Positions 1 to 56,527 of a stretch of DNA of 64,000 nt are shown here, in pieces. Under the pieces are notes generated by a model. That model saw nothing but the letters and a program-made list of their open reading frames with translations, was not told where the DNA came from and did not search any database. Location of the stretch: positions 1,803 to 65,802 of the forward strand of contig JAYOBT010000004.1 of NCBI GenBank assembly GCA_038105035.1. Direction: 5' to 3'. Within the stretch, counting starts at the first letter, position 1. Every line of letters starts with the position of its first letter. Source of the DNA: Candidatus Poseidoniales archaeon (GTDB taxonomy: Archaea; Thermoplasmatota; Poseidoniia; Poseidoniales; Poseidoniaceae). The translations under genes were made by a program, and so were the position numbers.

Positions 1-2013
1 ATGGACAAATCGAATGGGATTCTCTACATCGCTGATGCTGGCGCAAACCGTGTCCTGTGGGTCAATACGGACGATTCAACCACCACAACAACGGACATCA
101 TGGGCGATGCATCTCGGCTTGAGCCACTTGCAGAATACTCCGAAATTACAGACGTTGAGTGGGGTGTGCTGGCAACTGGGCTCAACCTACCTTCTGGTAT
201 CGCTCTTGCTGATGGTCAACTCTTTGTCTCTGAAAATGGCAATGGAAAGATTGTCGCCTACGAGCTTGCTTCTGATGGAAAGAGTGCAGTTGAACTTGAC
301 GACATTCAAACTTCTGCTACCTCAATCATGGGATTAGAGGTTGGACCAAACGGACATCTGTACTACGTCGACAACGGTCAAGATGAGGTCGTTCGAATCG
401 ATCCATATACCGATGAAGACGGTGATGGTGTTGGCGATGGAGTCGACAATTGCCCCAACATCGCAAATCCATTGCAAGCCGACTTTGACAACGATTCAAT
501 CGGAGATGTTTGCGATGAAGACGATGATAACGATTCGATTTTGGATATTGATGATCAATGTATACGCGGCCAACTCGATTGGACGTCAACGATGCTGAAC
601 GATCATGATGGAGATGGCTGTCGAGATGCGACGGAAGACACGGATGACGACAACGATGGTGTCGTTGATGCCTCCGATCTTTGTTCTGCAGGAGATTTGG
701 GCTGGACGTCATCAGCTTCAACCGATTACGATGCGGATGGATGCCAAGATGCATTCGAAGACATTGATGATGACAACGACAGAGTCTGCGATGCTAGCGA
801 TTTGAGCAGTTCATGGGCTTGTACACCATCGACCGCGAGCGTTGATCTCTGTCCAGAAAGTTCTCTCGGGTTCTTCTCGAACAATCAGAACGATGTAGAC
901 GGTGATGGTTGTGAAGATGCTACCGAAGATTCCGATGATGACAACGATGGATTTGTTGACGACGTTGATGCCTGTCCTTTGGATGCAGGAACAAGTTCGC
1001 TCGGTTCAGAACTCGGTTGCAGCGACTACGATTCAGATGGGTACAGCGACTCCATTGATGTGTTCCCAACAGATTCGACACAGTGGTTGGATGCAGATGG
1101 CGATGGATATGGCGACAACCCAGATGGTTTCGAAGCAGATGGATGCGTCAATCAAGCAGGGCAGTCAACGATGGAGACCTTCGGATGTCCGGATGCGGAT
1201 GGAGATGGTTGGTCAGATTTGAACGATGCTTTCCCGAACGAGGCATCGCAACATGCAGATGCCGATAGCGATGGCTTTGGAGATGCTATTGATGGGTTTC
1301 AAGCGGACGAATGTCCAATGATTGCTGGAACATCAACCGAGGACTTTTTCGGATGCTTGGATTCAGATGCTGATGGATGGTCAGATTTGAACGATGCTTT
1401 CCCTCAAGAACCAACACAACATAGCGATGCTGATGGTGATGGCTATGGTGATAATGCAGAAGGAGACCTCCCAGATAGCTGTCCAGAACTGTACGGTCTT
1501 TCCTCCATCGATCGGTATGGATGTCCTGATACGGATGGAGACGGTTGGGAAGATCGTTCTGATGCATACGTAAGCGATGCTCGCTTATGGTCTGATACGG
1601 ACGATGACGGTTATGCCGACCAACAGGGAACAAACCTATCGGATGATTGCCCTGAAACGTTCGGCACATCGATTCTCGATTTCGTAGGATGTTTGGATTC
1701 TGATGGGGATGGCTGGTCCGATCAAACCGATGCATATCCAAACGATGCATCGAAGTATCTCGCTGCAGAAGAAAAACTGGATGACAGTAACTTCACGCTC
1801 ATTGGTCTTGGAATTGGAATACTTGTTTTGGTGTTCCTCATGCTCTTCATCATGCGAAAGAAGACAACAGTAGAGCATGAGTTCGGTTTCGTTGCTCCGC
1901 CAATTCCAGAACCACTTCCGAGTGCACCCCCGCTTCCTCCTGAAGGATTGCCAGCAGGTTGGACGATGGAACAATGGATGTATTACGGGGAAGATTACCT
2001 CAAGCGCCAATAG
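1..2013 (+). CDS. Surface protein with NHL-like propeller blades, thrombospondin type-3 (TSP3) Ca-binding repeats, a C-terminal TM anchor and a Pro-rich tail; possibly 5'-truncated at the window edge
   Basis: The ORF is open from nt 1, so the ATG at 1 may be internal. Blade-like motifs GILYIADAGANRV, GQLFVSENGNGKI and GHLYYVDNGQDEV. Canonical TSP3 DEDGDGVGDGVDNCPNIANPLQADFDNDSIGDVCD. Five GC-x-D-x-DGDGWSD...AFP-x-E-x2-QH-x-D-x-D-x-DG-x-GD modules. Hydrophobic FTLIGLGIGILVLVFLMLFIM is followed by RKK. Confidence 0.8.
   Translation: MDKSNGILYIADAGANRVLWVNTDDSTTTTTDIMGDASRLEPLAEYSEITDVEWGVLATGLNLPSGIALADGQLFVSENGNGKIVAYELASDGKSAVELDDIQTSATSIMGLEVGPNGHLYYVDNGQDEVVRIDPYTDEDGDGVGDGVDNCPNIANPLQADFDNDSIGDVCDEDDDNDSILDIDDQCIRGQLDWTSTMLNDHDGDGCRDATEDTDDDNDGVVDASDLCSAGDLGWTSSASTDYDADGCQDAFEDIDDDNDRVCDASDLSSSWACTPSTASVDLCPESSLGFFSNNQNDVDGDGCEDATEDSDDDNDGFVDDVDACPLDAGTSSLGSELGCSDYDSDGYSDSIDVFPTDSTQWLDADGDGYGDNPDGFEADGCVNQAGQSTMETFGCPDADGDGWSDLNDAFPNEASQHADADSDGFGDAIDGFQADECPMIAGTSTEDFFGCLDSDADGWSDLNDAFPQEPTQHSDADGDGYGDNAEGDLPDSCPELYGLSSIDRYGCPDTDGDGWEDRSDAYVSDARLWSDTDDDGYADQQGTNLSDDCPETFGTSILDFVGCLDSDGDGWSDQTDAYPNDASKYLAAEEKLDDSNFTLIGLGIGILVLVFLMLFIMRKKTTVEHEFGFVAPPIPEPLPSAPPLPPEGLPAGWTMEQWMYYGEDYLKRQ
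413..1757 (+). repeat. TSP3-type acidic Ca-binding repeat array inside CDS 1..2013
   Basis: Reiterated DxDxDGxxDxxD loops flanked by Cys. Boundaries are approximate. Confidence 0.7.
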
Positions 2014-2071
2014 CCTTGACGTTACAATTCAGAGACCAAAAGGTATCAAGCCGACATGGTTAGCATTGTCT

Positions 2072-2983
2072 GTGGATAACGTCAATATTCAAGCCTTCTT
2101 CCTTGGAGTAATATTCCTCACAGCAGGGGGCTATCTTGCTTTTGATATGCAAGACAACATCACATGGATGACGTATTCCTCCGATGATAAGGAAGAATAT
2201 TTTGATGGTGATTTTTGGTGGACAATGGATGTTACCACCGAGAACGATTATGGTTTACAGGAGTCAATAATTTCAGCAAATGGGCAAATGTGCGATGAAC
2301 GTGACTGTTATCCAATTGAAATGAGTTCAGAATTTGAGATATTGGATCACCCCGTTCTGTTGGAAGAGCGAGGTGAACCTGTCGACTGCGATACTACAAA
2401 AGAAGACTCTGACATTTCAATTTGTGAAATAGCCTCAGCGGGTTCAACTGCAGAAACGATTATCTCCACAGGGCTTGGAATTCTCGCTTTCACAATTCTT
2501 CTCTCTCTTGTAGGCGTTTTCGGCTACATTCCTGGGCGTGTACTCAAACTACTCAGTTCGGTTTCATCCTTGATTCTCTTTACTGGGCCAATTGTTTGGT
2601 ATGTATTGATGCCTGACTTGAACGCAGACATAAGCGCGACCGAGGAAAAGTACAAACTATCAACAGGTTTCTATTTGACACTACTCAGTTCTCCTCTCGT
2701 CTTTGTTGCGGGTGGATTTTGTGGAAGTATGGAGGCCTTCGCTTACGAAGAAGAGGAGGATTGGGATCAAGAAGATGATGACTTCATGAGCGATGATGAG
2801 TACGAATCCTACTCAGATGCATACGATCGACCGACGAAGGTTGATGCAGTCAGCGAAGGTTCAATCGATGTCAATTTACAAGGCGTCCTCGACGAAGAAG
2901 GTTACGAATGGCTTGAACATCCTGAAGGTAGTGATGAATGGTACTGGCGTGATCAAGATACTGGAACTTGGGTTCGTTACTGA
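2072..2983 (+). CDS. Hypothetical polytopic membrane protein with an acidic tail ending in a Trp-rich WW-like module
   Basis: ORF 1877..2983 overlaps the upstream gene until 2013. The first in-frame starts after that are TTG 2066 and GTG 2072. The first ATG (2147) would delete the first hydrophobic helix IQAFFLGVIFLTAGGYLAF. Three more hydrophobic helices follow. The tail is EGYEWLEHPEGSDEWYWRDQDTGTWVRY. The start is uncertain. Confidence 0.55.
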   Translation: MDNVNIQAFFLGVIFLTAGGYLAFDMQDNITWMTYSSDDKEEYFDGDFWWTMDVTTENDYGLQESIISANGQMCDERDCYPIEMSSEFEILDHPVLLEERGEPVDCDTTKEDSDISICEIASAGSTAETIISTGLGILAFTILLSLVGVFGYIPGRVLKLLSSVSSLILFTGPIVWYVLMPDLNADISATEEKYKLSTGFYLTLLSSPLVFVAGGFCGSMEAFAYEEEEDWDQEDDDFMSDDEYESYSDAYDRPTKVDAVSEGSIDVNLQGVLDEEGYEWLEHPEGSDEWYWRDQDTGTWVRY

Positions 2984-3026
2984 GGAATTTACAATTGCTC
3001 AAGTACTTCCATCAATAGGTTGAGGC

Positions 3027-3425
3027 ATGAGCAAGAAATTCTTCATCAAAATTGTAACAGACCCAGACGTCGATCTTCGCAAGTGTGTTGTCGGTGTTGC
3101 CTGCGCAGCACAAGCCATCAAGGATGGCTATGATGTCGACATCTTCCTCGCAGCAGACGGAGTCAAGATGATTCACGCTGATTACATCAAGGGAATCAAT
3201 GAACAAGGAAACTTTCCTGACGGAATGATCTTCAATATGCTGAACGTCATCACAGAAGGAGCATCCAATGTTTACTGTTCAACGGGTTCTCAAGCAGCCA
3301 ATGGTGTCACCAAAGAGAACGCAGATGAAATCCTACTCGAAGGCTACTCGGACTGGATGACATGGAGCGGACCTCCAGGCGTGATTGAACTCAGTGCTGC
3401 ATCCGATGTCCAACTCGTCTACTAG
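3027..3425 (+). CDS. DsrE/DsrF-like sulfur-relay family protein
   Basis: 132 aa. Layout typical of the DsrE fold: KIVTDPDVD...CVVGVACAAQAIKDGYDVDIFLAADGV. A GGTTGAGG Shine-Dalgarno-like motif lies just upstream of the ATG. Confidence 0.55.
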   Translation: MSKKFFIKIVTDPDVDLRKCVVGVACAAQAIKDGYDVDIFLAADGVKMIHADYIKGINEQGNFPDGMIFNMLNVITEGASNVYCSTGSQAANGVTKENADEILLEGYSDWMTWSGPPGVIELSAASDVQLVY

Positions 3426-3733
3426 TTTGAATTCGATTTGGTCGAGAGAATCTCCTTGGGAATTCTGTAGGTGTAATGAAAACCATCTCCAATGAGCGTC
3501 AGCGATTCGAGTGAATCATCGAATGCAACGTGGTGAAACGTCGAGTCGAGATTGTGTAGTGGCATGTTTGCTGCCATTTTGCCTTGCCTTGACAGCGAGA
3601 TTCCTGTAGCAACATAGGGTTCGATAGAAGTGAATTGTAGGATACCTTCAGAAGTTTCGACGCTTCCTAAACCTTGGAACATCTTGACAAAATACTCGCT
3701 GATTCTGTCCCATTCTTCGATTGAGAAGTTCAT
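3422..3733 (-). CDS. Hypothetical protein (104 aa)
   Basis: The long ORF 3422..4003 runs antisense into gpmA. The internal ATG at 3733 (MNFSIEEWDR...) leaves a clean divergent spacer. A GTATAGA TATA-like box sits about 26 nt upstream. No family recognised. Confidence 0.4.
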   Translation of the reverse strand: MNFSIEEWDRISEYFVKMFQGLGSVETSEGILQFTSIEPYVATGISLSRQGKMAANMPLHNLDSTFHHVAFDDSLESLTLIGDGFHYTYRIPKEILSTKSNSN

Positions 3734-6570: not shown

Positions 6571-7047
6571 ATGCATCCTACAGTAAGCAAGGCACTGCTC
6601 TTGGTCCTATTGATTGCATCACCATGGATTCTCGTACAAGGCTGGATTCTAGTCGGTGCACAGGACGAATCCATCTCATCCATGGAAGCCTGTCCGGACA
6701 GTAGTGCGAATTGCGCTCATCTTGGTGGGAATGCGGACTATCGTATGGATGCAAGATCAACGATTATCGATCGTTCGATGGAAGACATTCGTTCAGAATT
6801 GAACGATTACATCACGGAGTATGATTGTAAAATTCTCGTTGAGGATGCATCGGAATCGATGTACTATGTCCACTTTGTTGAACATACACCGTTTTGGTTG
6901 TTCCCAGATGATGTCTTGATTTCCATTGAGCAAATCGATGAAGATACGGTGGAAATTGAACTGCATTCTCAGTCCCGCCTCGGCCTTGGTGATATGGGCG
7001 TGAATCCAGAACGGTTGGAGCGTATATACGATTACATAGCAGGCTGA
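6571..7047 (+). CDS. Secreted DUF1499-like protein
   Basis: N-terminal signal-like ALLLVLLIASPWILV. C-terminal SRLGLGDMGVNPERLERI resembles the DUF1499 signature (S-R-x-G-x-x-D-x-G-V-N). Confidence 0.55.
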   Translation: MHPTVSKALLLVLLIASPWILVQGWILVGAQDESISSMEACPDSSANCAHLGGNADYRMDARSTIIDRSMEDIRSELNDYITEYDCKILVEDASESMYYVHFVEHTPFWLFPDDVLISIEQIDEDTVEIELHSQSRLGLGDMGVNPERLERIYDYIAG

Positions 7048-7772
7048 ATCAAGTCGTCCCAGCCGTACGGATAACCGCTCTCATCGATGAGCAGCACATT
7101 GACACCCAATCCCGTTTTGTGGAAAGCAATCAACTGGATGTCATGGATGGAATGTCCGGTTGGAGCTATACCTAGAATTGGCAATTCTTTTCTTGAAAAC
7201 CACGATCGTTTTGTTTTGGGGGCGTGTTCTGTCCCGAGGCTACGACGCATACCGTCAACATCATCAAACCATGGCAGTGGCCCTTCAGGAGAAAATCGTA
7301 GACCCAGAATCATGTCAACACCGGTTGTTTCTTGCGCCGCATCTGTGTCGGCTCCACTCGGAATAGCGGGTGCATTTGGGTGCGTATGCAACCAGTGTGT
7401 GAATCGTCCCGCTCTAGAACCACGTTGTCCTGAGAAGAGATCATCTGTCCATTCTTCTGGAAGATGATGAACAGAGTAAGAATCACCACGGTTGACGATA
7501 TGAGCTTCTTTGATGACGTGTCCTTGGCCTCCAAAGAGATTGGAAACATGCTCCTGTCCTTCAAAGGCGGATTCGACTTCATCGATGTGTTTTCTGTTTG
7601 GGTCAACATCAAGGCCGACTAGAATTTCGTCTGGAAGCGATTGCAGAGCCCAAACCACGAGTTCACGAAAGACAGGTCCTGGAAGGTGCAATTGTGCTGC
7701 GTAGGCATGCCTCATCGAGTACGATTCAGCGTTGTAGGAACGCATCGCATCAACCAACCACGCTTCGACCAC
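7032..7772 (-). CDS. JAMM/MPN+ family metalloprotease
   Basis: Exact H-x-H-x7-S-x2-D motif HTHPNAPAIPSGAD at nt 7347..7388, with an upstream Glu (KEAHIV). The start is GTG 7772 or ATG 7745. Confidence 0.7.
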   Translation of the reverse strand: MVEAWLVDAMRSYNAESYSMRHAYAAQLHLPGPVFRELVVWALQSLPDEILVGLDVDPNRKHIDEVESAFEGQEHVSNLFGGQGHVIKEAHIVNRGDSYSVHHLPEEWTDDLFSGQRGSRAGRFTHWLHTHPNAPAIPSGADTDAAQETTGVDMILGLRFSPEGPLPWFDDVDGMRRSLGTEHAPKTKRSWFSRKELPILGIAPTGHSIHDIQLIAFHKTGLGVNVLLIDESGYPYGWDDLIQPAM

Positions 7773-7836: not shown

Positions 7837-8577
7837 ATGTATGACCTCCTCATGGCGAAGAAGAGAGGAGGGTTTGGCCGTTTCCTCGGGGCACTTACTG
7901 GTACGCCATACGAACGTCTACTCAAACAGGTTGAGAAACTCGCAAATGAGCACGCTGATGACGAGCGAAAACTCGGAAAAGCCCTCAAAAAACTCGTTGA
8001 TGTCGTCGGGACGGCGTACGAGGAAGAAGAAATTGACGAAGACGAGCATGACCTTGTCATCGAAGCCATTGAAGAGGCAGACCCAAAGGGACGTTCCTTC
8101 CCGAAATTCGCTGAAGAAGATGCATTTTATGCCAACGATGCGCCAGATGCCCCAGAATTGGATCTTGGCAAGCGTAAGAACTTGGATGAATTGATGACAG
8201 CATCAGGAAAAGAATTCACTGGAAGTTTTGGTCGTGACGAATTTGAAGAATTCAAGGCACGTATGACGGATGACTTCTATGCCGATTCGGATGAAGCCAT
8301 CCAAGCTGGCGATCATCATGCTACAATTCGAACAGAGAATCGAGTGTTTGCCGATGAAGAGGATGAACTTCAGAATGTTAAAGCAATGATCTCACAAGAA
8401 TCAGGCCTTGCTGACCCGACCGCCGTCGAAGAAGAGGAAGAAGAATCCTTTGAAGGCGACGAGAATTATTCCATCGATGAGGATGGAACAGAATGGTTCC
8501 AAGACGATGATGGTTACTGGTGGTATCGTCCTGAAGGAGAGCCTGAATGGCTGCCTTGGGAAGAAGACGAGGATTGA
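7837..8577 (+). CDS. Soluble, highly acidic hypothetical protein ending in a WW-like Trp-rich module
   Basis: No hydrophobic helix. D/E-rich. C-terminus DGTEWFQDDDGYWWYRPEGEPEWLPWEEDED. Confidence 0.6.
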   Translation: MYDLLMAKKRGGFGRFLGALTGTPYERLLKQVEKLANEHADDERKLGKALKKLVDVVGTAYEEEEIDEDEHDLVIEAIEEADPKGRSFPKFAEEDAFYANDAPDAPELDLGKRKNLDELMTASGKEFTGSFGRDEFEEFKARMTDDFYADSDEAIQAGDHHATIRTENRVFADEEDELQNVKAMISQESGLADPTAVEEEEEESFEGDENYSIDEDGTEWFQDDDGYWWYRPEGEPEWLPWEEDED

Positions 8578-10449
8578 TCACGACGGAATCGGTTGTTGAT
8601 CCCACCACGGTGGAGCAAGGAACCATGCATCATGATTTGCAGGACGGTCGATGAGTGGTAGTCCAATGGTGCCACCATCAATGGACAGCCCACCCAATGG
8701 ATTGGTTGCGCAAGGACCAGGCAAGTAATCCTCGCCAGCCTCAGTCAATTCGATGCGTAGTGTGTGGCCAGCAGGAACAATAACGTCCAGAGGATTGAAT
8801 TCCATTAGCATCGTATAGGAAGAGAGAGGAGCAACTGGATTTGCATCGTAACCCCCGTCTCGGTAACGTAGGTCCATGGTCGCGTGACCAAGCCGAAGGT
8901 CGAGCGTATCATCGTACAACGTTGCAAAGATTTGTCCTCCATTGCATGCCTGTGTAGATACATCTAGATGCAATGTTGGTAGCCCCGAGATATGCAGACC
9001 ATCCACATAGACTTGGCTCGTTAGTGTCACAGAGCCTCCCGAACCAGTAACGATTCCATCGCCGCTCCATTCGGCTCCAATGGATCCCATCTGCCATGTC
9101 ATGTCTTCCGGAGGCCAAGTCTCTTCAACGTGCCACTGGCCATCATGCGTTTGAATCTGGACCATGGGTTCGGGTTCTTCTCCGATATCCTTGAGATAAT
9201 ATTGGAACCAACCATAGAGTTCAACTGCCCAATCCATTCGACTCATGTTCGGATAAGCTTCACCTCCATAGCCGCTTCCAAGTTCACTGTGACGGTCGGG
9301 TTGATCGGGATAGTTGTGGGCCCATTGCCCAGCAATCGCTCGAGCATTGATGCCCGCATCTCGCATCAACTGATAGGTTGGGAAAGCGTGGTACGGATCA
9401 ACGTTCCAGTCCTGTAGCCCCCAGACGAGATAGACGCTTCCACGATAGTTTTCGAGAACATCTGGAAGATGTCGGCGCTCGTCCCAATAATCGTTCCACT
9501 CTGCTCCACCAAACTCAGCAAAAGCATAGGTCGACCACGGGTTGAGTGGGCCAATAAGGTCATCCGAACAAACCCGCATATCATCGGTCGTCAAGTCTGC
9601 CGTTGCAGCCTGATATGCTGCATCGTAACCCATTGCACGTGCTTCAGATGATCCGTTTCGATAGAACATTTCTTGGACACCAATGGACCCTGAAATTGGT
9701 ACGATGGTCTTCAGATACTCGCTTGGTTGTTGCGCAGCCTCCCAGTTGGTCGTTCCAGCATAGGATTTGCCCATCAGTCCAACGTTTCCGTTCGACCAAT
9801 TTTGTTGCCCAAGCCAATCGACAACGGCTTGAATTCCAACCTGTTCTCCAAGGCCTTTGACGTCTTGACAATGGGTTGATTTTCCTGTTCCGAAGGTACT
9901 TGCTTGAGCAAGTGCATAACCGTGTGGAACAAAGGTATCGTAGACCCATTGCCCAACACCACCGTCTGGGATGGTGTTTGGATTCGAGTCTGCACCAACA
10001 CCAGGCATACCTTCACCGCCAAAGTCATAGTATGGATGAATGGTCATGATCACAGGGACTTTGACACCCTCTTCAACATCAGGTAGCCACAAAGCGACGT
10101 GCATTTTTGCATCATCAGGATATCCAGCGTCTTGTTCTGATGCAGGTAGATCGACCGTAATGAAATGTTCCGTTAACGGCAGAACGTCGTAGGTCCCATT
10201 CTCTGGAAGTTGTGCTCTCATCGTATCCATTGGTAGATCCATTTCGTGTCGTTCATGCAGTGGAACATCCCACCAATCGTAGGTACTTTCCACTTCACTC
10301 TCGTCGGTGAGTGCTTCGCCAAACGACATGGAAAGAAACAGGAAGATGACACAAAACGCAATGGTCGCTGATAGTGAGATGTTCAGTTGTGTTTTACTAC
10401 GGTCTGTTGAGGAATCGAAGATCTCCGCTTCGTGGATGTCCTCAGCCAT
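8578..10449 (-). CDS. X-Pro dipeptidyl-peptidase / CocE-NonD family serine hydrolase (S15), N-terminally membrane anchored
   Basis: G-x-S-Y-x-G nucleophile elbow (GKSYAGTT). About 620 aa. N-terminal hydrophobic helix ATIAFCVIFLFLSMSF. Confidence 0.72.
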   Translation of the reverse strand: MAEDIHEAEIFDSSTDRSKTQLNISLSATIAFCVIFLFLSMSFGEALTDESEVESTYDWWDVPLHERHEMDLPMDTMRAQLPENGTYDVLPLTEHFITVDLPASEQDAGYPDDAKMHVALWLPDVEEGVKVPVIMTIHPYYDFGGEGMPGVGADSNPNTIPDGGVGQWVYDTFVPHGYALAQASTFGTGKSTHCQDVKGLGEQVGIQAVVDWLGQQNWSNGNVGLMGKSYAGTTNWEAAQQPSEYLKTIVPISGSIGVQEMFYRNGSSEARAMGYDAAYQAATADLTTDDMRVCSDDLIGPLNPWSTYAFAEFGGAEWNDYWDERRHLPDVLENYRGSVYLVWGLQDWNVDPYHAFPTYQLMRDAGINARAIAGQWAHNYPDQPDRHSELGSGYGGEAYPNMSRMDWAVELYGWFQYYLKDIGEEPEPMVQIQTHDGQWHVEETWPPEDMTWQMGSIGAEWSGDGIVTGSGGSVTLTSQVYVDGLHISGLPTLHLDVSTQACNGGQIFATLYDDTLDLRLGHATMDLRYRDGGYDANPVAPLSSYTMLMEFNPLDVIVPAGHTLRIELTEAGEDYLPGPCATNPLGGLSIDGGTIGLPLIDRPANHDAWFLAPPWWDQQPIPS

Positions 10450-16437: not shown

Positions 16438-19400
16438 ATGGAAGAACGCGCAGTATGGGGAAATCGGTTTCTGACACTGTGTTTGACGTTGCTTTTCGCA
16501 ATGCCACTCCTTGCACCACTTGCATCCGCTGACGGCATGACGACCTGCGATAGCGTCCCAGGGTTCAGCGATTGCGACGACTATGATTCAAGCGATGATG
16601 GAACACCGTTCCAACAAGATTGGATTCGTGGAACCTACGATTTTGATTTACAAGATACATCAACCATCCACATGACCTTGAGTTGGGCAGTTCGTGAATT
16701 CGATCGCAGTAAGGTTGGCCTCGATGATTCGACCACACAAGCTGCACTCGCAGCAGATGGTCTCGATGATGACGATGGAATTCCTGCAGACATGATTCGA
16801 ACCTACTTTGCTTACGATGACGGTACTGGAACAGTTGGTGACAAGATGCTGGTCGAGGTTGAAGACACCATCCATGACCTCCTTTCCAATGGTTTTGGTA
16901 CGGTCACAGCCATCAACACGCAGTACGATGGGATCTATACAGAAGCAGGTTCTTCCGAGGTATGCACAACCGATGCAACACAAGATTCAGTGTATGATTC
17001 TGGTTCAGGCGTTACGGAAAACAACGCCTTCGACCCACCAATTTGCTTCTCAACCATCGCAGAGATTGAGTTGTCAACGAGCACCTTCAACCTCCTTGAA
17101 AATTCAGACCTCGATCTTGAGCGAGCCTACCAAGGCCTCTTGATTATGGGTTCTGAACTGACGACACAATTCAGCGTGTTTGCTGAACCAGGTCATGCTT
17201 CTACTTTCTCCATCAGTCCTCCAGATTATGCAGCCATTGTTGGTGTTGACAGCAATGGCTCGATTCAACCATCAGCATGTCTACCAGCAGCTTGCGTTGG
17301 CCAGTGGACGGTCGACAACCTCAACGCTGGTGTAGGCGCCTCTCGCGTCGACCAGACCGTGAGTCTGACGATGGGCTACCGCAACACATCAACGACATCC
17401 ATTGTTGAACTCGATCCGAACGAAGAGGCGGTAACCCTCCATCTCAAGGTGGATTTGTTTGACGAACAAGCGGTTCAAATCGACTTTGTTGCGGGTATTA
17501 ACTATCTTGATACAACTACGATGGATAATTGGGGCATTTCGCTTGTTGAATTATCCAATCTTGCTACAATTCCTCAGATTACTTCCGATGGTATCCGTTT
17601 GGCGTATGAGAACGGCATTGCTCCACTCGACGACTTTACCGATCAATTCCCGGTCGCTTCGGTTGGGGATGCGTTTTCGGATTCCATACCGGGTGCACCT
17701 GATATTCAGATGGGCGACCTGACCTGGGTAAGCGATTCTGTTGCGGATGGTATCGAAGGGCCTGCTGGCGGTTTGAATTACAGCCACTCTGTTGGTTGTT
17801 CCGAAACAGTGACACCACCAGATACGATTTCGTATTGCATTCTGGGGTCGAGTGCGATGGGTTATGATCATCCAATTTACCTACGTTCAACGAGCAATAC
17901 CTTCGAACTTGGACTGCTTGATCTCATTCAGGAAAATCTTCCAGATTCGGAATTTGATTTGGATGGCGAGACGTACTCCGTAAGTGATTACTTCGACGTG
18001 ATTACCAATGAAGACCTTCGACGACTAATGGATGCCGGACTTTCGCTCGAAACGGTCCTTGATACAGGCTTCCTTGAAAGCATGATTCCGTCTGATCTTC
18101 CACCATCAAAGATCACACTTGAACTCATTTTACCGAGTTGGATTGAGACCATAGGCGGTGATGACCGTATCATCTTGGAACACTCCGAATCTGGTGAGAA
18201 CAGGAATGAGATTTCCATTGCAGGACCATCTCCTTACGCCTACAATCACCCAATCCTCAATGAAGACGGCCAAACCATTTGTTTGCAGACGCAGAAGACG
18301 TGTGTTTCCACATCGCTATCCATCGATTTTGATACGTTCGACATCAATGAGTGGACTAAATCGGTTTCCGTTGAATTTGGGCTTGAAGCGAATGCTGTTG
18401 TTCACCGAGTTGCTGTTCCTCAGGGATATTACGATGTCAATGATGACACAACAGTCCGAATGGAAGTGATTCCGAGTGACTTGATTCGACTTTTCGGGGA
18501 CATCATGAGTCGTACTGATAAACCAATCAAGATTGAACGATGTCTCGAACCAAGTACTGCTTTCAGTGATTGTCCTACCTCGCGCCAACTTGTTTTCGAA
18601 CTTACTTCAGACGGATTGATGCAATTTGGTACCGATGTTGGTGAACTTCTTACCAACGAAATACATCTTGCTGCGGAAGGACTTGAGGACATTGAAGAAG
18701 GGCCAGAATTTTCAGCTGTTGATATCGGGGATTTTTCTATCGAAACAAGTCTTGCAGGTCTTGGAACACCTGGTCCAATCGTATCGGATGAAGTTGGCCT
18801 GAGTGTGAGTCTCAAAATTCCAAAAGTTCGATTCACGTTGGCTGTATCGAGCCCGTGGGGAGATTTGTTGAGTGGTAATCCAGACTTGATTACGCTTTCA
18901 CTATTGACCGAGAACATCAATGGCGCCTTCCGTTCACCTCTCCTTCAACCGATGGTCATGATGGTCGATGAAATGTCGTCAATGATGGTAGCGAGCGTTG
19001 TCTCATCAGAAGGTGTAACCTTCCCTCCACTCGAACAAGAAGCCCTCACAGTTGAGACAGGATCTTGGGATACCACCATCCATGAAGAGACGGAATTTGA
19101 CCTCACTGGACCTGTTAGTTTCACCTTGCCAAAGGGCATCATTGCCAAGGAAGCCACATCTGCCCAAGGGAACATGATTGTGACAGAAGATGCGGAAGGT
19201 CGTCAAGTCATCACGTACACGATTCCACCCGATGGTCTTGATGATGAGGTGACACTTCGCTTGCAAGTCACGTGGTTGTATCTTCTTGGTCAGTTCTGGG
19301 CCTATCCGGCTGTTGTCGTCATCTTGTTGATTCTCTTGATACGGCGACGTCGAAAGAAGAAGAAGAAAAAGCGAGCTGCAAGAGAATCGAAGAATTCTCT

Positions 19401-19536
19401 GTACAAGGCTCAGAAGATGGGATTGTCCGAATCGGACTTCGCTCAAATGGCTGGATTGGTTGACCGTCAAGTCGGAGGATATGAGGAAGGCATCGACCCG
19501 TTTGAGGCGATGCAATATCCGCCTGAACAGCCTTAG
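16438..19536 (+). CDS. Large (1032 aa) secreted acidic protein with a C-terminal TM anchor; no recognisable domain
   Basis: Signal peptide FLTLCLTLLFAMPLLAPLASA. TM helix AYPAVVVILLILLI followed by RRRRKKKKKKR. Confidence 0.7.
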   Translation: MEERAVWGNRFLTLCLTLLFAMPLLAPLASADGMTTCDSVPGFSDCDDYDSSDDGTPFQQDWIRGTYDFDLQDTSTIHMTLSWAVREFDRSKVGLDDSTTQAALAADGLDDDDGIPADMIRTYFAYDDGTGTVGDKMLVEVEDTIHDLLSNGFGTVTAINTQYDGIYTEAGSSEVCTTDATQDSVYDSGSGVTENNAFDPPICFSTIAEIELSTSTFNLLENSDLDLERAYQGLLIMGSELTTQFSVFAEPGHASTFSISPPDYAAIVGVDSNGSIQPSACLPAACVGQWTVDNLNAGVGASRVDQTVSLTMGYRNTSTTSIVELDPNEEAVTLHLKVDLFDEQAVQIDFVAGINYLDTTTMDNWGISLVELSNLATIPQITSDGIRLAYENGIAPLDDFTDQFPVASVGDAFSDSIPGAPDIQMGDLTWVSDSVADGIEGPAGGLNYSHSVGCSETVTPPDTISYCILGSSAMGYDHPIYLRSTSNTFELGLLDLIQENLPDSEFDLDGETYSVSDYFDVITNEDLRRLMDAGLSLETVLDTGFLESMIPSDLPPSKITLELILPSWIETIGGDDRIILEHSESGENRNEISIAGPSPYAYNHPILNEDGQTICLQTQKTCVSTSLSIDFDTFDINEWTKSVSVEFGLEANAVVHRVAVPQGYYDVNDDTTVRMEVIPSDLIRLFGDIMSRTDKPIKIERCLEPSTAFSDCPTSRQLVFELTSDGLMQFGTDVGELLTNEIHLAAEGLEDIEEGPEFSAVDIGDFSIETSLAGLGTPGPIVSDEVGLSVSLKIPKVRFTLAVSSPWGDLLSGNPDLITLSLLTENINGAFRSPLLQPMVMMVDEMSSMMVASVVSSEGVTFPPLEQEALTVETGSWDTTIHEETEFDLTGPVSFTLPKGIIAKEATSAQGNMIVTEDAEGRQVITYTIPPDGLDDEVTLRLQVTWLYLLGQFWAYPAVVVILLILLIRRRRKKKKKKRAARESKNSLYKAQKMGLSESDFAQMAGLVDRQVGGYEEGIDPFEAMQYPPEQP

Positions 19537-24025: not shown

Positions 24026-24125
24026 GGAATATGCTTGAGCAGACGGGTTTTATCGCTTCGGGTCCTGATTGTTGCTTGCACAGGCGACGGGTGGCTTCAA
24101 ATGCTATCGCTTGGGAAGAGGAATC

Positions 24126-27100
24126 ATGGAGAAGAAGCAAACATTCCTTGCTTTGAGTTTGCTCTTGCTTCTCTTGTTCATGTCCATTTCTCCTGTGGTC
24201 CAACCCTTTGAGGTTGAGGGCGATGTTTCAGAAACTTCTGGAAGAGCGACCACAACGTGGTCTGGAACGGTGACATTGACCAGTGATTATTTTGTCAACG
24301 TACAGGATGAATTGCTCATTACTTCATGCACGAGTGTTGTCTTGTCTCCCGGAATCCGAATTTACGTTGATGGTCGATTGACAATTCAAGGGACATCGAC
24401 ATGCCCTGTTGTTCTCTCAAGTTCTTCCACGACCGGCGATCATGAAGGTATTCAGTTCAACAGTTCCTCCAATGGGCGTGGAAGTACTGTAAACCATCTT
24501 CATATCGAAGATGCCATTTATGGAATGACATTGTATGGTTCCAATCCTATTCTCAACAATGTGACGATTTTCAATCCAGATCGAGTCGGAATCGATATGT
24601 TTGGCAACTCTGCTCCAGTGATTCGGGATTTGCATGTTGAACAAGCAGGTCGAAATCTCCCATTCCAAAACGACTGGCGTTACGGCATTGGTTTGTCTGT
24701 TGGTGATGGTTCAACACCGATTGTCCAAGGTGCGTATTTCACGGACCATCTACTGCGCGGATTGAATCTCTGGGGTGCATCTGGTGGATTGTATCGAGAC
24801 ATCGTTATGGACAACATTTCAGGTTCCATTCTTAGTGAAGCAGCCGGCGTTTGGGTTGAGGACAGTGTTCCATTGTTCGAAGATTTGAGCATCGACAAGA
24901 GCGACACTGGAATCATTGTTCGCCACATTGATGATTCGGGTTACACCCGTGCAGTGTTTCGAGATGTTGAGATCAGTAACAGTATGTATCGTGGCGTATA
25001 TTTGGACAAGAACAATCATACCAATTACACAAATTATGAAACGGCTGATTTCACCAATCTAACCGTTCGCGGAACAGGATCCTCCGGAGCAACATCACCC
25101 GGCATTGCCTTTGCAGCGATTGAAATCAATGCCACTGGTGCTTGGATGGAAAACGTCCTTGTCGACGATGCCTCTTCTGTTGGTGTTCGCTTGTTCTTTG
25201 TCGATTCAACAACAACATTGCGAAACATGACGATTCGAGATGCAGGAGAGGCAGGTCAAGGTGCGCATTCTGCTGGATTGAGCATTCAAACGTCCTATTT
25301 TGCTGCTCATCTGGAAGAGATAGAAATCAGCGGATCACCTGGTCCAGGAATTCATTCATCGAGCGGAGGCTCCTTGCAAGGGCACGATTGGCACCTCCAC
25401 AACAACTCAGAACAAGGTCTGTACATCGATTCAGCTACCGTCGTCGTTGATGGATTATCCTCGTCGGACAATGGATTCTCCGCTGCCCATGTCTTCGATG
25501 CACGTTATGTCACATTCTCCAATGTGACATCAACGAACGATGGTTCTCTGGGTTCAAATGCCATGGAGCAAGCAGGTTTATCCTACCAGAAATCGAACGA
25601 TTTGGAAACAACATCAGGTGATGTGACCTGTATGAATTGTCACGTCGAAGCATCACAGGGCCATGGCGTCTACGTCATTGATTCCGTCGACCTCTGGCTT
25701 GATAATCTCTCAATTACAGACATCGATACAACTCTTCCTGCCATGTACGTCGACAACGGTGGCTTGACCTTGGGAACGCAAGGCGGGCGGTTCAATGTCA
25801 TAAACGCCAACATCGACCATGAATCACTGACACAACCGGCCTTGTACATCGAACAAGCAGCTGGAAATATCGACGGACTGACCCTCCAAGGCAATCACAA
25901 TGGAATCTACTGGGATGCAGATCACAACGGAAATTTTCCTTCGACATTGAGCAACACGGAATTTGTTGGTACAGACTGTCTCAAACTCGTCAACCATCCT
26001 GATCTTGGTGGTTATGGAAACACGATTGGAACGGATTGTACTGGACGGGTATGGATTGAAAATTCAGATGTCAATTTCTCGAATTTAGCTGATGCAAGTG
26101 GTGCTCACGTACTCGATTTGGACGCTTCATCTGTCTTGCATTTGCATCAACCAAACAATGTGGACTTGACAATGGCGAACATCCCATCAGGTGCCGTTAT
26201 AGACGTCGCTTGGGATGTCACTGTATGGGTTGTCAATAACCGTTCCAATGGTATTCCGAATGCCTATGCCAATGTGAGTTTCACGCAGTTTGAACCATCT
26301 GTTTCTGAGTTTACGAACGACCTTGGCGTTGTCGAGTTAACCGATTTCATCGGTCAACGATGGACCAATTCAGGGGCTTCAGCGATCAACGATGTCACCG
26401 TTGAATGCGGATACGACAGCGAAAGCAACACGACAACGGTAAGTTTCGATGGAGACAAAGTGATGTATTGTGTGCTCGAATTGGACAACCAACCTCCATT
26501 TTTGAATTGGACTTCACCGATGGATGGGGATGTGTTCCCCTCACAAGGACAAGTGCTGTTTGATGCTCAAGAGTCCTGGGATTTGGACGACGATCCTTTG
26601 ACGCTGACATGGACGTCTTCATTGGATGGTGTCATCTCATCGGCACAAAGCACGGCTCCATTTTCAGTGAATGATGGTGTATCTGGGATGACACTCAGCG
26701 ATGGTATTCATGACCTTACGTTGGAGGTTTGCGATGATGCTGGACATTGTGTTTCTGAGACGCGGACCATCGAATTAACCAATCTCGCACCAGAACTCAA
26801 CGTATCTTTTGTTCCAGGTTTAACACAATGGAACGAGCTCATCATGCCTCAAACGGGCACAGTTTCCATCAATACAACAGGAACCTTTGATCCAGAAGGC
26901 GATGACTTCGCTTGTCTCATCACATTTGGTGGTTACAATCGACAAGGTTCGGGATGGGGTAATCATTATGTCTGCCCAGAGTTGTTAACCTACACCTTCG
27001 ACCATTATGCGGATGACCCGCCAGCATCGTTCTTCTTGAATGTCGTTGCATTTGATGAAGTAGGAAATTCAGATACCTACACTGTTGAAGTCAAGTTGTA

Positions 27101-43386: not shown

Positions 43387-44778
43387 ATGCCGATTTTTGA
43401 ACACAATGCCACGTTTCCGTTTTCCCGACAGGCTGTTTGGGATTGGCACGCTCGACCAGGTGCAGTCCGACGAATTATGCCAGATTGGGAAGGCATTCGC
43501 CCCGTGCAAGTCGGTGGAATTACCGACGGTGCAATCACTGAATTTCGCATGAGCATCGGCATTGTGCCGCAGCGATGGGTTGCCAAACACCACAGCTATA
43601 TCGAAGGTGAGCAATTCTGTGACGACTCGATCAAAGGCCCTTTTGCTCGCTGGAATCACGTTCACAAGTTTGTTGATGGTGGAGAACAAGAAATGACCAT
43701 CGAAGACAGAATCGACTGGAAACTACCGTTCCATTTCTTTTCAAGAATTGGTGCCCCAATCATGGTCATGCCCAGAGTTCGGACAATGTTCAAACATCGT
43801 ACTCGTAGAATACTTGCAGACCTTAGCCGTCAACAGATGTTCAAAGATGCGCCTCGACGTCGTATCCTCATCAGTGGTTCAACCGGATTAATTGGAACAC
43901 AATTGGGCGCTTTCCTTGAAACAGACGGACATGATGTCCATCGACTTCTGCGTCCCACAACGAACCTTCACGCCGATCAAAACCCAAACAACATCGTTCG
44001 ATGGAACGACCAAACTGGAGAAATTCTTGAAGGCTCTCTGGAAGGTTTTGACGTCGTGATTCACCTCGCTGGTGCGGGAATTGGTGACAAGCGCTGGAGT
44101 AAGAAACGAAAGAATCTGATTGCAACGAGTCGTGCCATCCCTACAGAGAATCTCTCGAAGGCCCTCGCTTCACTTGAATCGCCTCCGGGCGTATTCATGT
44201 GCGCTTCTGCGGTCGGTTTTTACGACAACAGAGGCGATGAAGAATTGGATGAATCAAGCAGCATTGGCGATGGTTTCCTCGCAACATTGTGCAAGCAATG
44301 GGAAGATACCACGATTCCAGCCTCAAGTGCTGGAATTCGAACCATCATCATGCGAACAGGCATCGTTACAACGGCTGCTGGAGGTATGCTCAAGCAGATT
44401 CTTCCTATCGCAAAGATAGGGGCGCTCGGTCCAATTGGTGGAGGAAAGCAATGGCAATCTTGGATATCTCTCGACGATCAAATCTATGCGATGTACCACC
44501 TGATGAACCAAGATGATGCAAGCGGTGTTTACAATTTGACCGCTCCTCAACCCGTGACGCAGAAACAATATGCCAAGACACTAGGTAAGGTTCTCCGCCG
44601 ACCTGCATTCGCTCCCGCACCTGGTTTTGTCATGAAAATTCTGTTTGGAGAAATGGGCAAGTCACTTATTCTCGATGGGCAAAGGGTCTATCCAAAACGA
44701 TTGTTAGAATCTGGATACACATTTGAACATGAAACACTTGAACCAGCCCTCCGTGATGCGTTGGGACGGTTCAACTAA
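43387..44778 (+). CDS. SRPBCC (cyclase/dehydrase-like) domain fused to a YfcH-type (TIGR01777) SDR epimerase with a DUF1731 C-terminus
   Basis: ILISGSTGLIGTQLGAFL Rossmann motif. C-terminal RRPAFAPAPGFVMKILFGEM...GQRVYPKRLLESGYTFEH. GTG 43378 is an alternative start. Confidence 0.78.
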   Translation: MPIFEHNATFPFSRQAVWDWHARPGAVRRIMPDWEGIRPVQVGGITDGAITEFRMSIGIVPQRWVAKHHSYIEGEQFCDDSIKGPFARWNHVHKFVDGGEQEMTIEDRIDWKLPFHFFSRIGAPIMVMPRVRTMFKHRTRRILADLSRQQMFKDAPRRRILISGSTGLIGTQLGAFLETDGHDVHRLLRPTTNLHADQNPNNIVRWNDQTGEILEGSLEGFDVVIHLAGAGIGDKRWSKKRKNLIATSRAIPTENLSKALASLESPPGVFMCASAVGFYDNRGDEELDESSSIGDGFLATLCKQWEDTTIPASSAGIRTIIMRTGIVTTAAGGMLKQILPIAKIGALGPIGGGKQWQSWISLDDQIYAMYHLMNQDDASGVYNLTAPQPVTQKQYAKTLGKVLRRPAFAPAPGFVMKILFGEMGKSLILDGQRVYPKRLLESGYTFEHETLEPALRDALGRFN

Positions 44779-44818
44779 TCGTCGCTTTCTTCTTAACCGG
44801 CATGTGTCATGGACAAAC

Positions 44819-56470: not shown

Positions 56471-56515
56471 AGCAGTAACAGCAACCTCAAAAACAACACG
56501 TGATTGGCGAAAATA

Positions 56516-56520
56516 GGAGG
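56516..56520 (+). promoter_or_regulatory. Shine-Dalgarno-like GGAGG, 7 nt upstream of ATG 56528
   Basis: Read directly from the sequence. Confidence 0.4.
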
Positions 56521-56527
56521 AAGTGAA

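What the first reader, a model, noticed from the sequence alone, without database searches (positions are those of the whole stretch)
2897..2980. Recurrent C-terminal Trp-rich, WW-domain-like module on three unrelated proteins
Three CDS end in the same 26-31 aa module at the extreme C-terminus. The copies are 2897..2980 EGYEWLEHPEGSDEWYWRDQDTGTWVRY, 8482..8574 DGTEWFQDDDGYWWYRPEGEPEWLPWEEDED and 48552..48629 EGQLWRKHPDGSLDWWDSTYNIWQRW. The shared pattern is [DE]G-x2-W-x3-[PD]-[DE]-G-x(1-3)-W-[WY]-x(6-9)-W-x-[RP]-[WY]. The first and last conserved Trp are 18-20 residues apart, with an aromatic pair after a Gly turn. That is the layout of the eukaryotic WW fold (W...G-x-YY...W-x-x-P), except that the terminal Pro is replaced by an aromatic residue. 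Two carriers are membrane proteins in which the module follows the last TM helix, so it is predicted to be cytoplasmic. The third carrier is a soluble acidic protein. I do not recognise this as a named prokaryotic domain. Alternative readings are a C-terminal sorting or degradation tag, or an interfacial Trp-rich membrane anchor.
Basis: partly seen in the sequence, partly recalled or inferred. Interest (0 to 1): 0.78.

Follow-up and report, generated by a model that had tools for sequence, protein, structure and literature searches.

The report
Unnamed C-terminal tail domain of marine archaea
The three Trp-rich endings are real copies of a small folded domain, absent from Pfam and NCBIfam, that sits at the cytoplasmic C-terminal tip of hundreds of different membrane and surface proteins of Marine Group II archaea (Poseidoniales); it resembles a WW domain in size and aromatic pattern, but no test here showed a relationship to WW.

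Summary
Three otherwise unrelated + strand genes end in the same roughly 30-aa Trp-rich module: A 2066..2983, B 7852..8577 and C 47355..48632. The strict pattern hits only these three places, against none in 200 shuffles.

The window comes from a Poseidoniaceae (MGIIa) archaeon. The three copies are W-enriched variants of a much larger family. A module profile found 203 protein clusters among 1.84 billion representatives. In 144 of the 147 new sequences inspected, the module lies within 0-4 residues of the C-terminus, apart from about four readthrough or frameshift artefacts.

The family consensus is D-E-x-G-Y-E-W-x4-D-G-x-N-W-Y-R-x2-G-S-x2-E-W-x-K-F; G, E, W, R and W are invariant.

Carriers include:
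- giant type-I surface proteins (TSP3, RCC1-like and FG-GAP-type ectodomains)
- TM2-domain proteins
- small membrane proteins
- one soluble acidic protein (B), whose gene sits head-to-head with a JAMM/JAB metalloprotease gene in 80 of 80 genomes

The module follows the last TM helix, a K/R stop-transfer and a linker of median 74 aa, so it is cytoplasmic. AlphaFold2 predicts a small antiparallel beta-meander (pLDDT 85 and 88).

Pfam, NCBIfam, PDB sequences, Foldseek and hhalign against WW, choline-binding repeats and DUF2510 give no significant match.

My best reading is a new cytoplasmic interaction domain family. Its function is inferred, not shown.

The parts
2066..2983 (+). Carrier A, a membrane protein with four hydrophobic segments. 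The ORF is open from 1877. The likely start is TTG 2066 or GTG 2072, after the upstream gene ends at 2013.
   Evidence: ORF list; candidate starts; hydropathy; orthologue in L011 4215..5126 at 76% identity with the same module; no Pfam family.
2861..2980 (+). Module copy A with its N-terminal extension: SIDVNLQG-VLDEEGYEWLEHPEGSDEWYWRDQDTGTWVRY. The core is 2885..2980.
   Evidence: Translation. HMM hits with E 8.9e-13 and 6.6e-13 using two seed profiles. AF2 model of 2876..2980: pLDDT 85.1, strands at residues 3-5, 11-14, 22-25 and 32-34.
7852..8577 (+). Carrier B, a soluble, very acidic protein of 241 aa. Start is ATG 7852 (MAKKR...), as in most orthologues.
   Evidence: 511 homologues, all unnamed or 'hypothetical', and all named ones from Poseidoniaceae/Poseidoniales MAGs. 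Alignment A2. No hydrophobic segment; net charge -46.
8470..8574 (+). Module copy B, SIDEDGTEWFQDDDGYWWYRPEGEPEWLPW (8470..8559), followed by the acidic tail EEDED.
   Evidence: Translation. Trp positions are invariant in 120 of 120 listed orthologues and in all 80 genome loci.
47355..48632 (+). Carrier C, a type-I single-pass membrane protein with a signal peptide, an ectodomain of about 320 aa, a TM helix at residues 346-364, and a cytoplasmic tail of about 60 aa. Start is ATG 47346 or 47355.
   Evidence: ORF list; candidate starts; hydropathy; no Pfam family.
48540..48629 (+). Module copy C: VLDDEGQLWRKHPDGSLDWWDSTYNIWQRW.
   Evidence: Translation. HMM E 1.6e-11. The relative P0001 keeps every Trp.
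7035..7772 (-). JAMM/JAB metalloprotease-like gene, transcribed divergently from carrier B. It is linked to B, not to the module in general.
   Evidence: Prok-JAB PF14464, E 5.6e-5, 23.4 bits, just under the 25-bit cut-off. Motif HTHPNAPAIPSGAD (H-x-H-x7-S-x2-D) is present in 80 of 81 orthologues. It sits head-to-head with B in 80 of 80 genome loci, even where other neighbours are rearranged.

Best explanation
The three endings are copies of an autonomous, folded mini-domain of about 33-45 residues. It is a new family, specific as far as named sources show to Marine Group II archaea (Poseidoniales).

The domain is fused by domain shuffling to the extreme C-terminus of many unrelated proteins. 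In membrane proteins it hangs in the cytoplasm at the end of a flexible, mostly acidic tether after the last TM helix. It also ends one soluble acidic protein (B), whose gene is invariably paired with a JAMM/JAB protease gene.

Shown by computation here:
- the family, its consensus and its strict C-terminal position
- the cytoplasmic topology
- the predicted four-element antiparallel beta-meander: a central hairpin (Y-E-W-x / tight D-G turn / N-W-Y-R) flanked by short N- and C-terminal strands carrying the first hydrophobic pair and the last Trp
- the occurrence of tandem copies

Inferred: the domain works as a protein-protein interaction (adaptor) module. Its aromatic face would either bind a common cytoplasmic partner or short linear motif, or pair with other copies. 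That would couple the tails of many different surface proteins, and protein B with its JAB partner, to one cytoplasmic or cortical network. This is how WW and SH3 domains, and the Trp-bearing acidic tails of TRAP-family adhesins, work in eukaryotes. It is not a demonstrable WW homologue.
For: Real and non-random:
- 3 strict matches against 0 in 200 shuffles.
- Conserved in 120 of 120 listed B orthologues, and in A and C relatives.

Large family:
- hmmsearch with a 22-sequence module profile against 1.84e9 representatives gave 203 clusters at E<=1e-3.
- 144 of the 147 new ids carry the module within 0-4 aa of the C-terminus, apart from about four readthrough or frameshift artefacts. G7, E9, W10, R22 and W30 are invariant.
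- A DNA pattern scan found 66 marine metagenome stretches. In 64 the module was confirmed, and in all but three divergent long-loop variants it lies within 0-3 aa of the stop.

Behaves as a mobile domain:
- Five unrelated carrier types occur within 1.07 Mb of Poseidoniaceae DNA.
- Carriers have TSP3, RCC1-like, Ephrin-receptor-like and TM2 domains.
- Tandem double copies occur in L144, L099 and L106.
- 5 of 85 TM2-family homologues lack the module.

Cytoplasmic:
- In 61 carriers the last TM helix is followed by a mean of 2.75 K/R within 12 aa, and by a linker of median 74 aa.
- Topology of A, B and C.

Folded:
- Two independent AF2 predictions on different subfamilies gave pLDDT 85.1 and 88.1, with the same strand order.

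Link to a cytoplasmic enzyme:
- B and a JAB gene are divergent neighbours in 80 of 80 loci, with the JAMM motif intact.
Against: - No partner, ligand or oligomer was identified. Clustering the gene neighbourhoods of 66 metagenome loci showed no recurrent partner gene.
- AF2 was run only on 35-aa fragments as monomers. Confidence for such small peptides with shallow alignments (11 and 51 rows) can be over-optimistic.
- Foldseek gave no significant match, so 'interaction module' rests on analogy (size, aromatic content, tandem copies, terminal position), not on homology.
- Taxonomy of most carriers is unknown, because they come from unnamed metagenome proteins.
Confidence: 0.55

Rival explanations
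1. It is a true, highly divergent WW domain that binds proline-rich motifs (PPxY or PPLP type) in other cytoplasmic tails.
For: - Similar size and aromatic layout: W on the first main strand, an aromatic pair on the second, W on the third, and an aromatic or Pro 2-3 residues later. B orthologues end in W-Q-P-Y.
- Tandem copies occur, as in WW proteins.
- Pro-rich cytoplasmic tails exist in the same window. ORF 1..2013 has ...APPIPEPLPSAPPLPPEGLP..., and ORF 44723..47353 has ...IPLPPPPGG....
Against: - No PF00397 hit at E<=10 for 60+ module sequences, whereas 14 of 14 WW controls hit.
- hhalign probability 2.7-2.8%.
- PDB profile searches find no WW chain.
- Foldseek top-50 lists contain no entry described as a WW domain.
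- Loop lengths are the reverse of WW, there is an extra N-terminal strand, and the invariant E and R have no WW counterpart.
Confidence: 0.1
2. It is a homotypic assembly unit. Each copy is one four-stranded blade or hairpin pair that associates with copies on other chains into an intermolecular sheet or propeller-like ring, clustering the carriers.
For: - The best, non-significant Foldseek matches of model 1 are single blades of Kelch, LGI1-EPTP and other propellers. Those of model 2 include tachylectin-2 blade fragments and the Pent designed propeller.
- The predicted four-strand meander has about the size of a short blade.
- The same module sits on many co-resident membrane proteins.
Against: - All those matches have E about 1.
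- The module, at 33-45 aa, is short for a blade.
- No oligomer prediction could be run.
- The module is strongly acidic (mean -5.1), which disfavours self-association without counter-ions.
Confidence: 0.15
3. It is a C-terminal recognition tag (degron, or a quality-control or processing signal) read by a protease or unfoldase, possibly the JAB protein encoded next to B.
For: - Strict extreme C-terminal position.
- B is paired with a JAMM/JAB metalloprotease gene in 80 of 80 genomes.
- An S15 peptidase gene lies within 10 kb of B in 67 of 80 loci.
Against: - There is no fixed C-terminal residue. Endings vary (-VRY, -QRW, -PYDED, -KFEN, -KYQN) and 0-6 extra residues follow.
- More than 30 residues with an invariant G/E/W/R/W framework and a confident fold prediction point to a domain, not a linear tag.
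- Tandem internal copies exist.
- The JAB link holds only for B.
Confidence: 0.1
4. It is an interfacial Trp-rich membrane anchor, or an aromatic-cage binder of a small cation (choline-binding-repeat-like).
For: - Aromatic richness: a mean of 3 Trp per 33 aa in the family and 4-5 in the window copies.
- Motif resemblance to choline-binding repeats (G-W-x-K-x-x-G-x-W-Y-Y), which gave the highest of the three hhalign probabilities, 14.5% over 12 columns.
Against: - Net charge averages -5.1 (range -13 to 0), after an acidic tether, and one carrier is a soluble protein with charge -46.
- No CW_binding_1 hit at E<=10, and the hhalign probability is low.
- Choline-binding repeats act extracellularly in arrays of four or more repeats, whereas this is a single or double cytoplasmic copy.
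Confidence: 0.05

Closest known systems
WW domain (Pfam PF00397)
   Same: - About 30-35 residues.
- Predicted antiparallel beta-meander with Trp on the first main strand, an aromatic pair on the second and Trp on the third.
- Modular, sometimes in tandem.
- A plausible aromatic binding face.
   Different: - No sequence or profile similarity.
- Not retrieved by Foldseek.
- Tight first turn and long second loop, the reverse of WW.
- An extra N-terminal strand.
- Invariant Glu and Arg.
- An aromatic residue instead of the terminal Pro.
- Archaeal, and always at the extreme C-terminus.
Choline-binding / cell-wall-binding repeats (CW_binding_1, PF01473)
   Same: An aromatic beta-hairpin motif, W-x4-6-G-x-W-Y-[YW]. 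One LytA repeat recalled from memory (RWRKHTDGNWYWFDNSG) looks much like window copy C (LWRKHPDGSLDWWDS).
   Different: - hhalign probability is only 14.5% over 12 columns, and there is no Pfam hit.
- Those repeats are extracellular, in long tandem arrays forming a solenoid.
- This module is a single or double cytoplasmic copy with a different third strand.
DUF2510 (PF10708), a small Trp-rich domain on actinobacterial membrane proteins
   Same: A short W/Y-rich module (GWYPDP...RYWDG..WT, recalled from memory) attached to membrane proteins, with a superficially similar W...P.G...YW...W pattern.
   Different: - hhalign probability 1.9%. Six control sequences written to the remembered consensus all hit PF10708, whereas the module never does.
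- From memory, DUF2510 is usually N-terminal and actinobacterial.
Cytoplasmic tails of apicomplexan TRAP/MIC2-family adhesins (analogy only)
   Same: Type-I adhesins with thrombospondin-type repeats outside, one TM helix, and an acidic cytoplasmic tail. That tail couples the adhesin to intracellular machinery (the link to the motor is in the abstract of PMC3406075). That a conserved Trp near the tail's C-terminus is responsible is from my own knowledge.
   Different: - No homology.
- Those tails are short and unstructured, with one key Trp.
- This is a folded domain of about 35 aa that also occurs on multi-pass and soluble proteins.
- The TSP3 repeats here are a different repeat type from the TSR of TRAP.
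Archaeal C-terminal sorting signals (PGF-CTERM and related archaeosortase signals)
   Same: Recurrent C-terminal elements on archaeal surface proteins.
   Different: By established knowledge, those signals are a motif plus a TM helix plus a basic tail, and they are removed by archaeosortase. Here the module lies 12-119 residues beyond the TM helix on the cytoplasmic side, is acidic and predicted to fold, and also occurs on a soluble protein.

Membership tests
WW domain (PF00397) | Significant match to the family profile | tested here: not met
   No PF00397 hit at E<=10 for window tails, canonical tails or 51 diverse modules. All 14 WW control sequences hit it, with E down to 4.9e-17.
WW domain (PF00397) | Profile-profile similarity to WW domains | tested here: not met
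   hhalign probability 2.8% (A5 vs A6) and 2.7% (A9 vs A6).
WW domain (PF00397) | Three-stranded twisted antiparallel sheet that superposes on solved WW structures | tested here: inconclusive
   AF2 predicts an antiparallel meander with the aromatics on successive strands. Foldseek against PDB gives no significant match and no entry described as a WW domain in either top 50.
WW domain (PF00397) | Second Trp followed by x-x-Pro; binds Pro-rich ligands | tested here: not met
   Family consensus is W-x-[KPE]-[FYHW]. Pro appears at W+2 only in the B subfamily and a few others (28 of 144 representatives), never at W+3. Ligand binding cannot be tested with these tools.
Choline-binding repeat (CW_binding_1, PF01473) | Match to the family profile; tandem arrays of 20-aa hairpin repeats; extracellular | tested here: not met
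   No Pfam hit. hhalign 14.5% over 12 columns. One or two copies only, on the cytoplasmic side.
DUF2510 (PF10708) | Match to the family profile | tested here: not met
   No Pfam hit. hhalign 1.9%, with 6 of 6 control sequences hitting PF10708.
Beta-propeller blade (Kelch, tachylectin and similar) | Four-stranded blade repeated 4-10 times in one chain, or assembled from several chains | tested here: inconclusive
   The top Foldseek matches are single blades but with E about 0.8-4. There are only 1-2 copies per chain. Oligomeric assembly could not be tested.
New family proposed here (Poseidoniales C-terminal Y-E-W/W-Y-R domain) | Consensus D-E-x-G-[YF]-E-W-x3-5-[DN]-G-x1-3-[WYF]-[YW]-R-x6-8-W-x-x-[FYWH] within about 6 residues of the C-terminus | tested here: met
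   - Copy A fits fully (HMM E 1.8e-9 against the 51-sequence profile).
- Copy B fits, with T in place of Y/F.
- Copy C is the most divergent: Q-L-W replaces Y-E-W and the Arg is missing (E 5.1e-6).
- All three are within 0-5 residues of the stop.

The most novel reading that the evidence does not exclude
The module is the common currency of an archaeal membrane-protein tail network. Copies on dozens of surface adhesins and transporter-like proteins would bind each other or one hub. The soluble module-bearing protein B would bring its invariably co-encoded JAMM/JAB isopeptidase to those tails. This would be a prokaryotic analogue of eukaryotic WW- and DUB-based control of membrane-protein fate (Nedd4/Rsp5 with AMSH/Doa4), or of adhesin-to-cortex coupling as in TRAP-family adhesins.
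Probability: 0.1. Interest if true: 0.85.

Novelty: new variant of a known kind. Interest (0 to 1): 0.58.

Why it matters
Marine Group II archaea are among the most abundant planktonic archaea and remain uncultured. Their genomes are crowded with giant surface proteins of unknown role.

A single small cytoplasmic domain shared by at least 200 clusters of these proteins, and missing from Pfam and NCBIfam, gives a handle on how they are organised from the inside:
- It defines a testable set of proteins that probably share one partner or assemble together.
- It links them to a universally conserved soluble protein and JAB-protease gene pair.
- It offers a 35-aa Trp-rich beta-domain that could be made synthetically for structure and binding studies.

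It is also a ready candidate for a new domain-family entry, which would improve annotation of thousands of 'hypothetical' marine archaeal proteins.

Tried and rejected
- **Word-indexed search with the three-copy profile (A1).** It produced only one candidate, P0001, so it was too insensitive for a 40-aa profile.
- **Chimeric D+E query.** It still served to bring E-type modules into the profile.
- **The search for related loci with the module alignment.** Replaced by a degenerate DNA pattern. The first pattern had too few plain bases. The second found 0 viral and 66 metagenome stretches.
- **Clustering of neighbour genes around 66 metagenome carriers.** No recurrent partner gene.
- **PDB sequence searches for protein B and the JAB protein.** Nothing meaningful.
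- **Cluster look-ups for taxonomy.** Almost all members are unnamed. The only names are 'hypothetical protein' and '[archaeon]'.
- **Four literature searches.** No paper describes this module.
- **Hypotheses rejected.** Membership of WW, of choline-binding repeats and of DUF2510; an archaeosortase-type sorting signal (wrong side of the membrane); a membrane-interface anchor (acidic).
- **Rfam and tRNA scans of the window.** Empty.
Full report
**1. The observation**

Each runs into a stop codon or is followed by only five acidic residues.
It hits none in 200 shuffles of the window.
- The carriers share nothing else. BLASTP of A and C against 13,446 ORFs from the window and 80 related loci finds only themselves, their orthologues, or other copies of the module.
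- Gene models were refined:
  - A most likely starts at TTG 2066 or GTG 2072, after the upstream gene ends at 2013, and has four hydrophobic segments.
  - B starts at ATG 7852 (MAKKR..., as in most orthologues). It has no hydrophobic segment and a net charge of -46.
  - C starts at ATG 47346 or 47355. It has a signal peptide and a single TM helix followed by RIRED and a tail of about 60 aa.

**2. Source organism and conservation**

- Homologues of B number 511. Every named one is from Candidatus Poseidoniaceae, Poseidonia or Poseidoniales MAGs.
- Nearly all of the 80 genome loci recovered with B carry Poseidoniales-type or generic archaeal MAG titles. One bin (L002) is titled 'uncultured Rhodobiaceae bacterium'.
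- In all 120 listed B orthologues the module reads D-E-[DN]-G-[VT]-E-W-[FW]-x-D-[DE]-[DE]-G-Y-W-W-[YF]-R-x3-5-W-x-[PA]-[YHW], and every Trp is invariant.
- The A orthologue in L011 and the C relative P0001 also keep all Trp residues.

**3. The module is the tip of a large family**

An HMM scan of 1.07 Mb of Poseidoniaceae DNA found two further unrelated carriers:
- D, a small two-TM protein (L016 974..1372, ...EGYEWLEYPAGSEAWYTRPETGGPWTKYHG).
- E, a multi-pass protein of about 500 aa with a TM2 domain (L070 8385..6856, ...DDHGFEWLQYNGENYYRQVGSNAEWTKY).

Of 85 E homologues, 80 end in the module and 5 lack it.

A 22-sequence profile (A5) was then searched with full HMMER against 1.84 billion representative proteins:
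- It gave 203 clusters at E<=1e-3.
- Of the 147 new sequences inspected, three are repeat-protein false positives (P0207, P0218, P0305).
- The other 144 carry the module within 0-4 residues of the C-terminus, apart from about four evident readthrough or frameshift artefacts.

The family consensus is x-S-T-D-E-N-G-Y-E-W-[FIYL]-x3-D-G-x-N-W-Y-R-x2-G-S-x2-E-W-x-K-[FY]-E. G7, E9, W10, R22 and W30 are invariant. A P-x-[IV]-[DE] motif about 13 residues upstream is often conserved.

The window's three copies are therefore atypical, W-enriched variants: 4-5 Trp against a family mean of 3.

A degenerate DNA pattern for G-Y-E-W-x4-D-G-x2-W-Y-R found no viral contig and 66 marine metagenome stretches. 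Analysis of those stretches showed:
- The module was confirmed in 64. In all but three divergent long-loop variants it lies within 0-3 residues of the stop.
- Carriers reach 2532 aa.
- Three proteins carry two tandem copies (L144, L099, L106). The first copy in each resembles window copy A.
- Two loci have neighbouring carrier genes (L100, L120).

**4. Carriers and topology**

- Pfam on 49 large carriers finds TSP3 repeats, RCC1-like propellers and an Ephrin-receptor-like domain, among others. Nothing covers the module.
- In 61 carriers with a detectable TM helix, the last helix is followed by a mean of 2.75 K/R within 12 residues. A linker of median 74 aa (range 12-119; about 16% D+E, 8% Pro) follows, and then the module.
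- By the positive-inside rule, the module is cytoplasmic.
- The window itself is dense in large surface proteins with TSP3/NHL, beta-helix/PKD and FG-GAP domains.

**5. Predicted fold**

AF2 was run on two different subfamily members.

| Target | Alignment | pLDDT | Strands (residues) |
|---|---|---|---|
| Tail of A | 11 rows | 85.1 | 3-5, 11-14, 22-25, 32-34 |
| Tail of E-type P0122 | 51 rows | 88.1 | 6-7, 12-17, 20-25, 33-34 |

Both models show the same arrangement:
- a central hairpin ([YF]-E-W-x-x-x / tight D-G or N-G turn / x-[WYF]-Y-R)
- a short N-terminal strand
- a C-terminal strand carrying the last Trp, reached through a 7-8-residue loop

**6. Comparison with known families**

- Pfam-A and NCBIfam give no relevant hit at E<=10 for window tails, canonical tails or 51 diverse modules.
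- PDB sequence profile searches find nothing related.
- Foldseek against PDB gives best E values of 0.76 and 0.8. The non-significant top hits are single propeller blades, an artificial mini-protein, BcsG, SH3 and Hfq. No match in either top 50 is described as a WW-domain entry.

Profile-profile comparisons used control sequence sets typed or written from memory. Two of the three sets were validated by Pfam.

| Family | Control check | hhalign probability |
|---|---|---|
| WW | 14 of 14 hit PF00397 | 2.7-2.8% |
| DUF2510 | 6 of 6 hit PF10708 | 1.9% |
| Choline-binding repeats | set not checked against Pfam | 14.5% over 12 columns |

The WW resemblance is thus one of size and aromatic pattern only. 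The loop lengths are reversed, and the invariant Glu and Arg are foreign to WW.

**7. Context of B**

- The gene upstream of B on the opposite strand (7035..7772) is a JAMM/JAB-type protein. It scores Prok-JAB 23.4 bits against a cut-off of 25 and has the motif H-T-H-P-N-A-P-A-I-P-S-G-A-D.
- The head-to-head JAB-B pair is present in 80 of 80 genome loci, including those where the other neighbours have moved.
- The metal-binding motif is intact in every complete orthologue.
- This ties the soluble carrier to a cytoplasmic isopeptidase-like enzyme. The link is specific to B.

**8. Mechanism**

Shown by computation: a conserved, predicted-folded, cytoplasmic, strictly C-terminal, shuffled and sometimes duplicated mini-domain.

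Inferred: it mediates protein-protein contacts that couple many different tails, and B with its JAB partner, to a shared partner or to each other.

Rival readings:

| Rival | Weight | Main point |
|---|---|---|
| True WW homologue binding Pro-rich tails | 0.10 | Pro-rich tails do occur in the window, but every kinship test failed |
| Homotypic blade-like assembly | 0.15 | Only weak Foldseek hints |
| C-terminal degron or processing tag | 0.10 | No fixed terminus; internal tandem copies |
| Membrane anchor or cation cage | 0.05 | Mean net charge -5.1 |

**9. Novelty and verdict**

- I found no description of this domain in Pfam-A (2025 copy), NCBIfam (2026), PDB sequences or four literature searches.
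- It is best filed as a new domain family of a familiar kind: a small beta-rich modular domain on cytoplasmic tails.
- It is of real but moderate interest, because the function is still inferential and the family seems confined to one archaeal order.
- Taxonomy beyond the named Poseidoniales and 'archaeon' sources could not be established.

Noticed in passing
window 7035..7772 (-) and 7852..8577 (+); loci L001-L080: A JAMM/JAB metalloprotease-like gene (motif HTHPNAPAIPSGAD) and carrier B form a head-to-head pair in 80 of 80 Poseidoniaceae genome loci, even where all other neighbours are rearranged. Neither protein has a named function.
   Followed up: partly
window 1..2013 (+), last ~45 aa; orthologues in L002, L007, L009, L011, L016: A second, different conserved cytoplasmic tail motif follows the TM helix of a TSP3/NHL surface protein: ...APPIPxPLPSAPPLPPEGLPAGWTMEQWxYYGEDYL(K/N)R... 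It combines a Pro-rich stretch with an 'LPxGW...YY' string. It is conserved in all five orthologues seen.
   Followed up: partly
L144 187..2535, L099 2..1099, L106 1..1182; L100 1..357 and 361..3681; L120: Some metagenome proteins carry two tandem copies of the module. The first copy is of the 'WLEWP.GS..YY.R' type, like window copy A. In two loci, adjacent genes both end in the module.
   Followed up: partly
L070 8385..6856 (-); P0122-P0204: A conserved multi-pass family of about 490 aa has an N-terminal TM2 domain (PF05154) and ends in the module. Five of 85 homologues end before it, so the module is dispensable or those sequences are truncated.
   Followed up: partly
window 8578..10449 (-): An S15-family X-Pro dipeptidyl-peptidase gene lies convergent to B. 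A homologue is within 10 kb of B in 67 of 80 loci.
   Followed up: no
window 24069..28832, 44723..47353, 50225..56470, 16438..19536 (+): The window is unusually dense in giant single-pass surface proteins (beta-helix + PKD; FG-GAP + TSP3; two with no Pfam hit). Their cytoplasmic tails lack the module. The tail of 44723..47353 ends in a Pro-rich ...LPELAIPLPPPPGGENDA.
   Followed up: no
window 56504..58048 (+), C-terminus: A Q/P-rich low-complexity stretch is followed by a zinc-ribbon-like CxxC...CxxC ending (CRGCGIGLDPNWRFCPICG).
   Followed up: no
L096 6849..7436, L124 1895..2554, L145 851..1459: A divergent subfamily of the module has a longer second loop (...DGYEWLHLQDGTTWYRVGGGFPDPNKWQLYQ...) and 8-19 extra C-terminal residues, on small membrane proteins of about 200 aa.
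   Followed up: no
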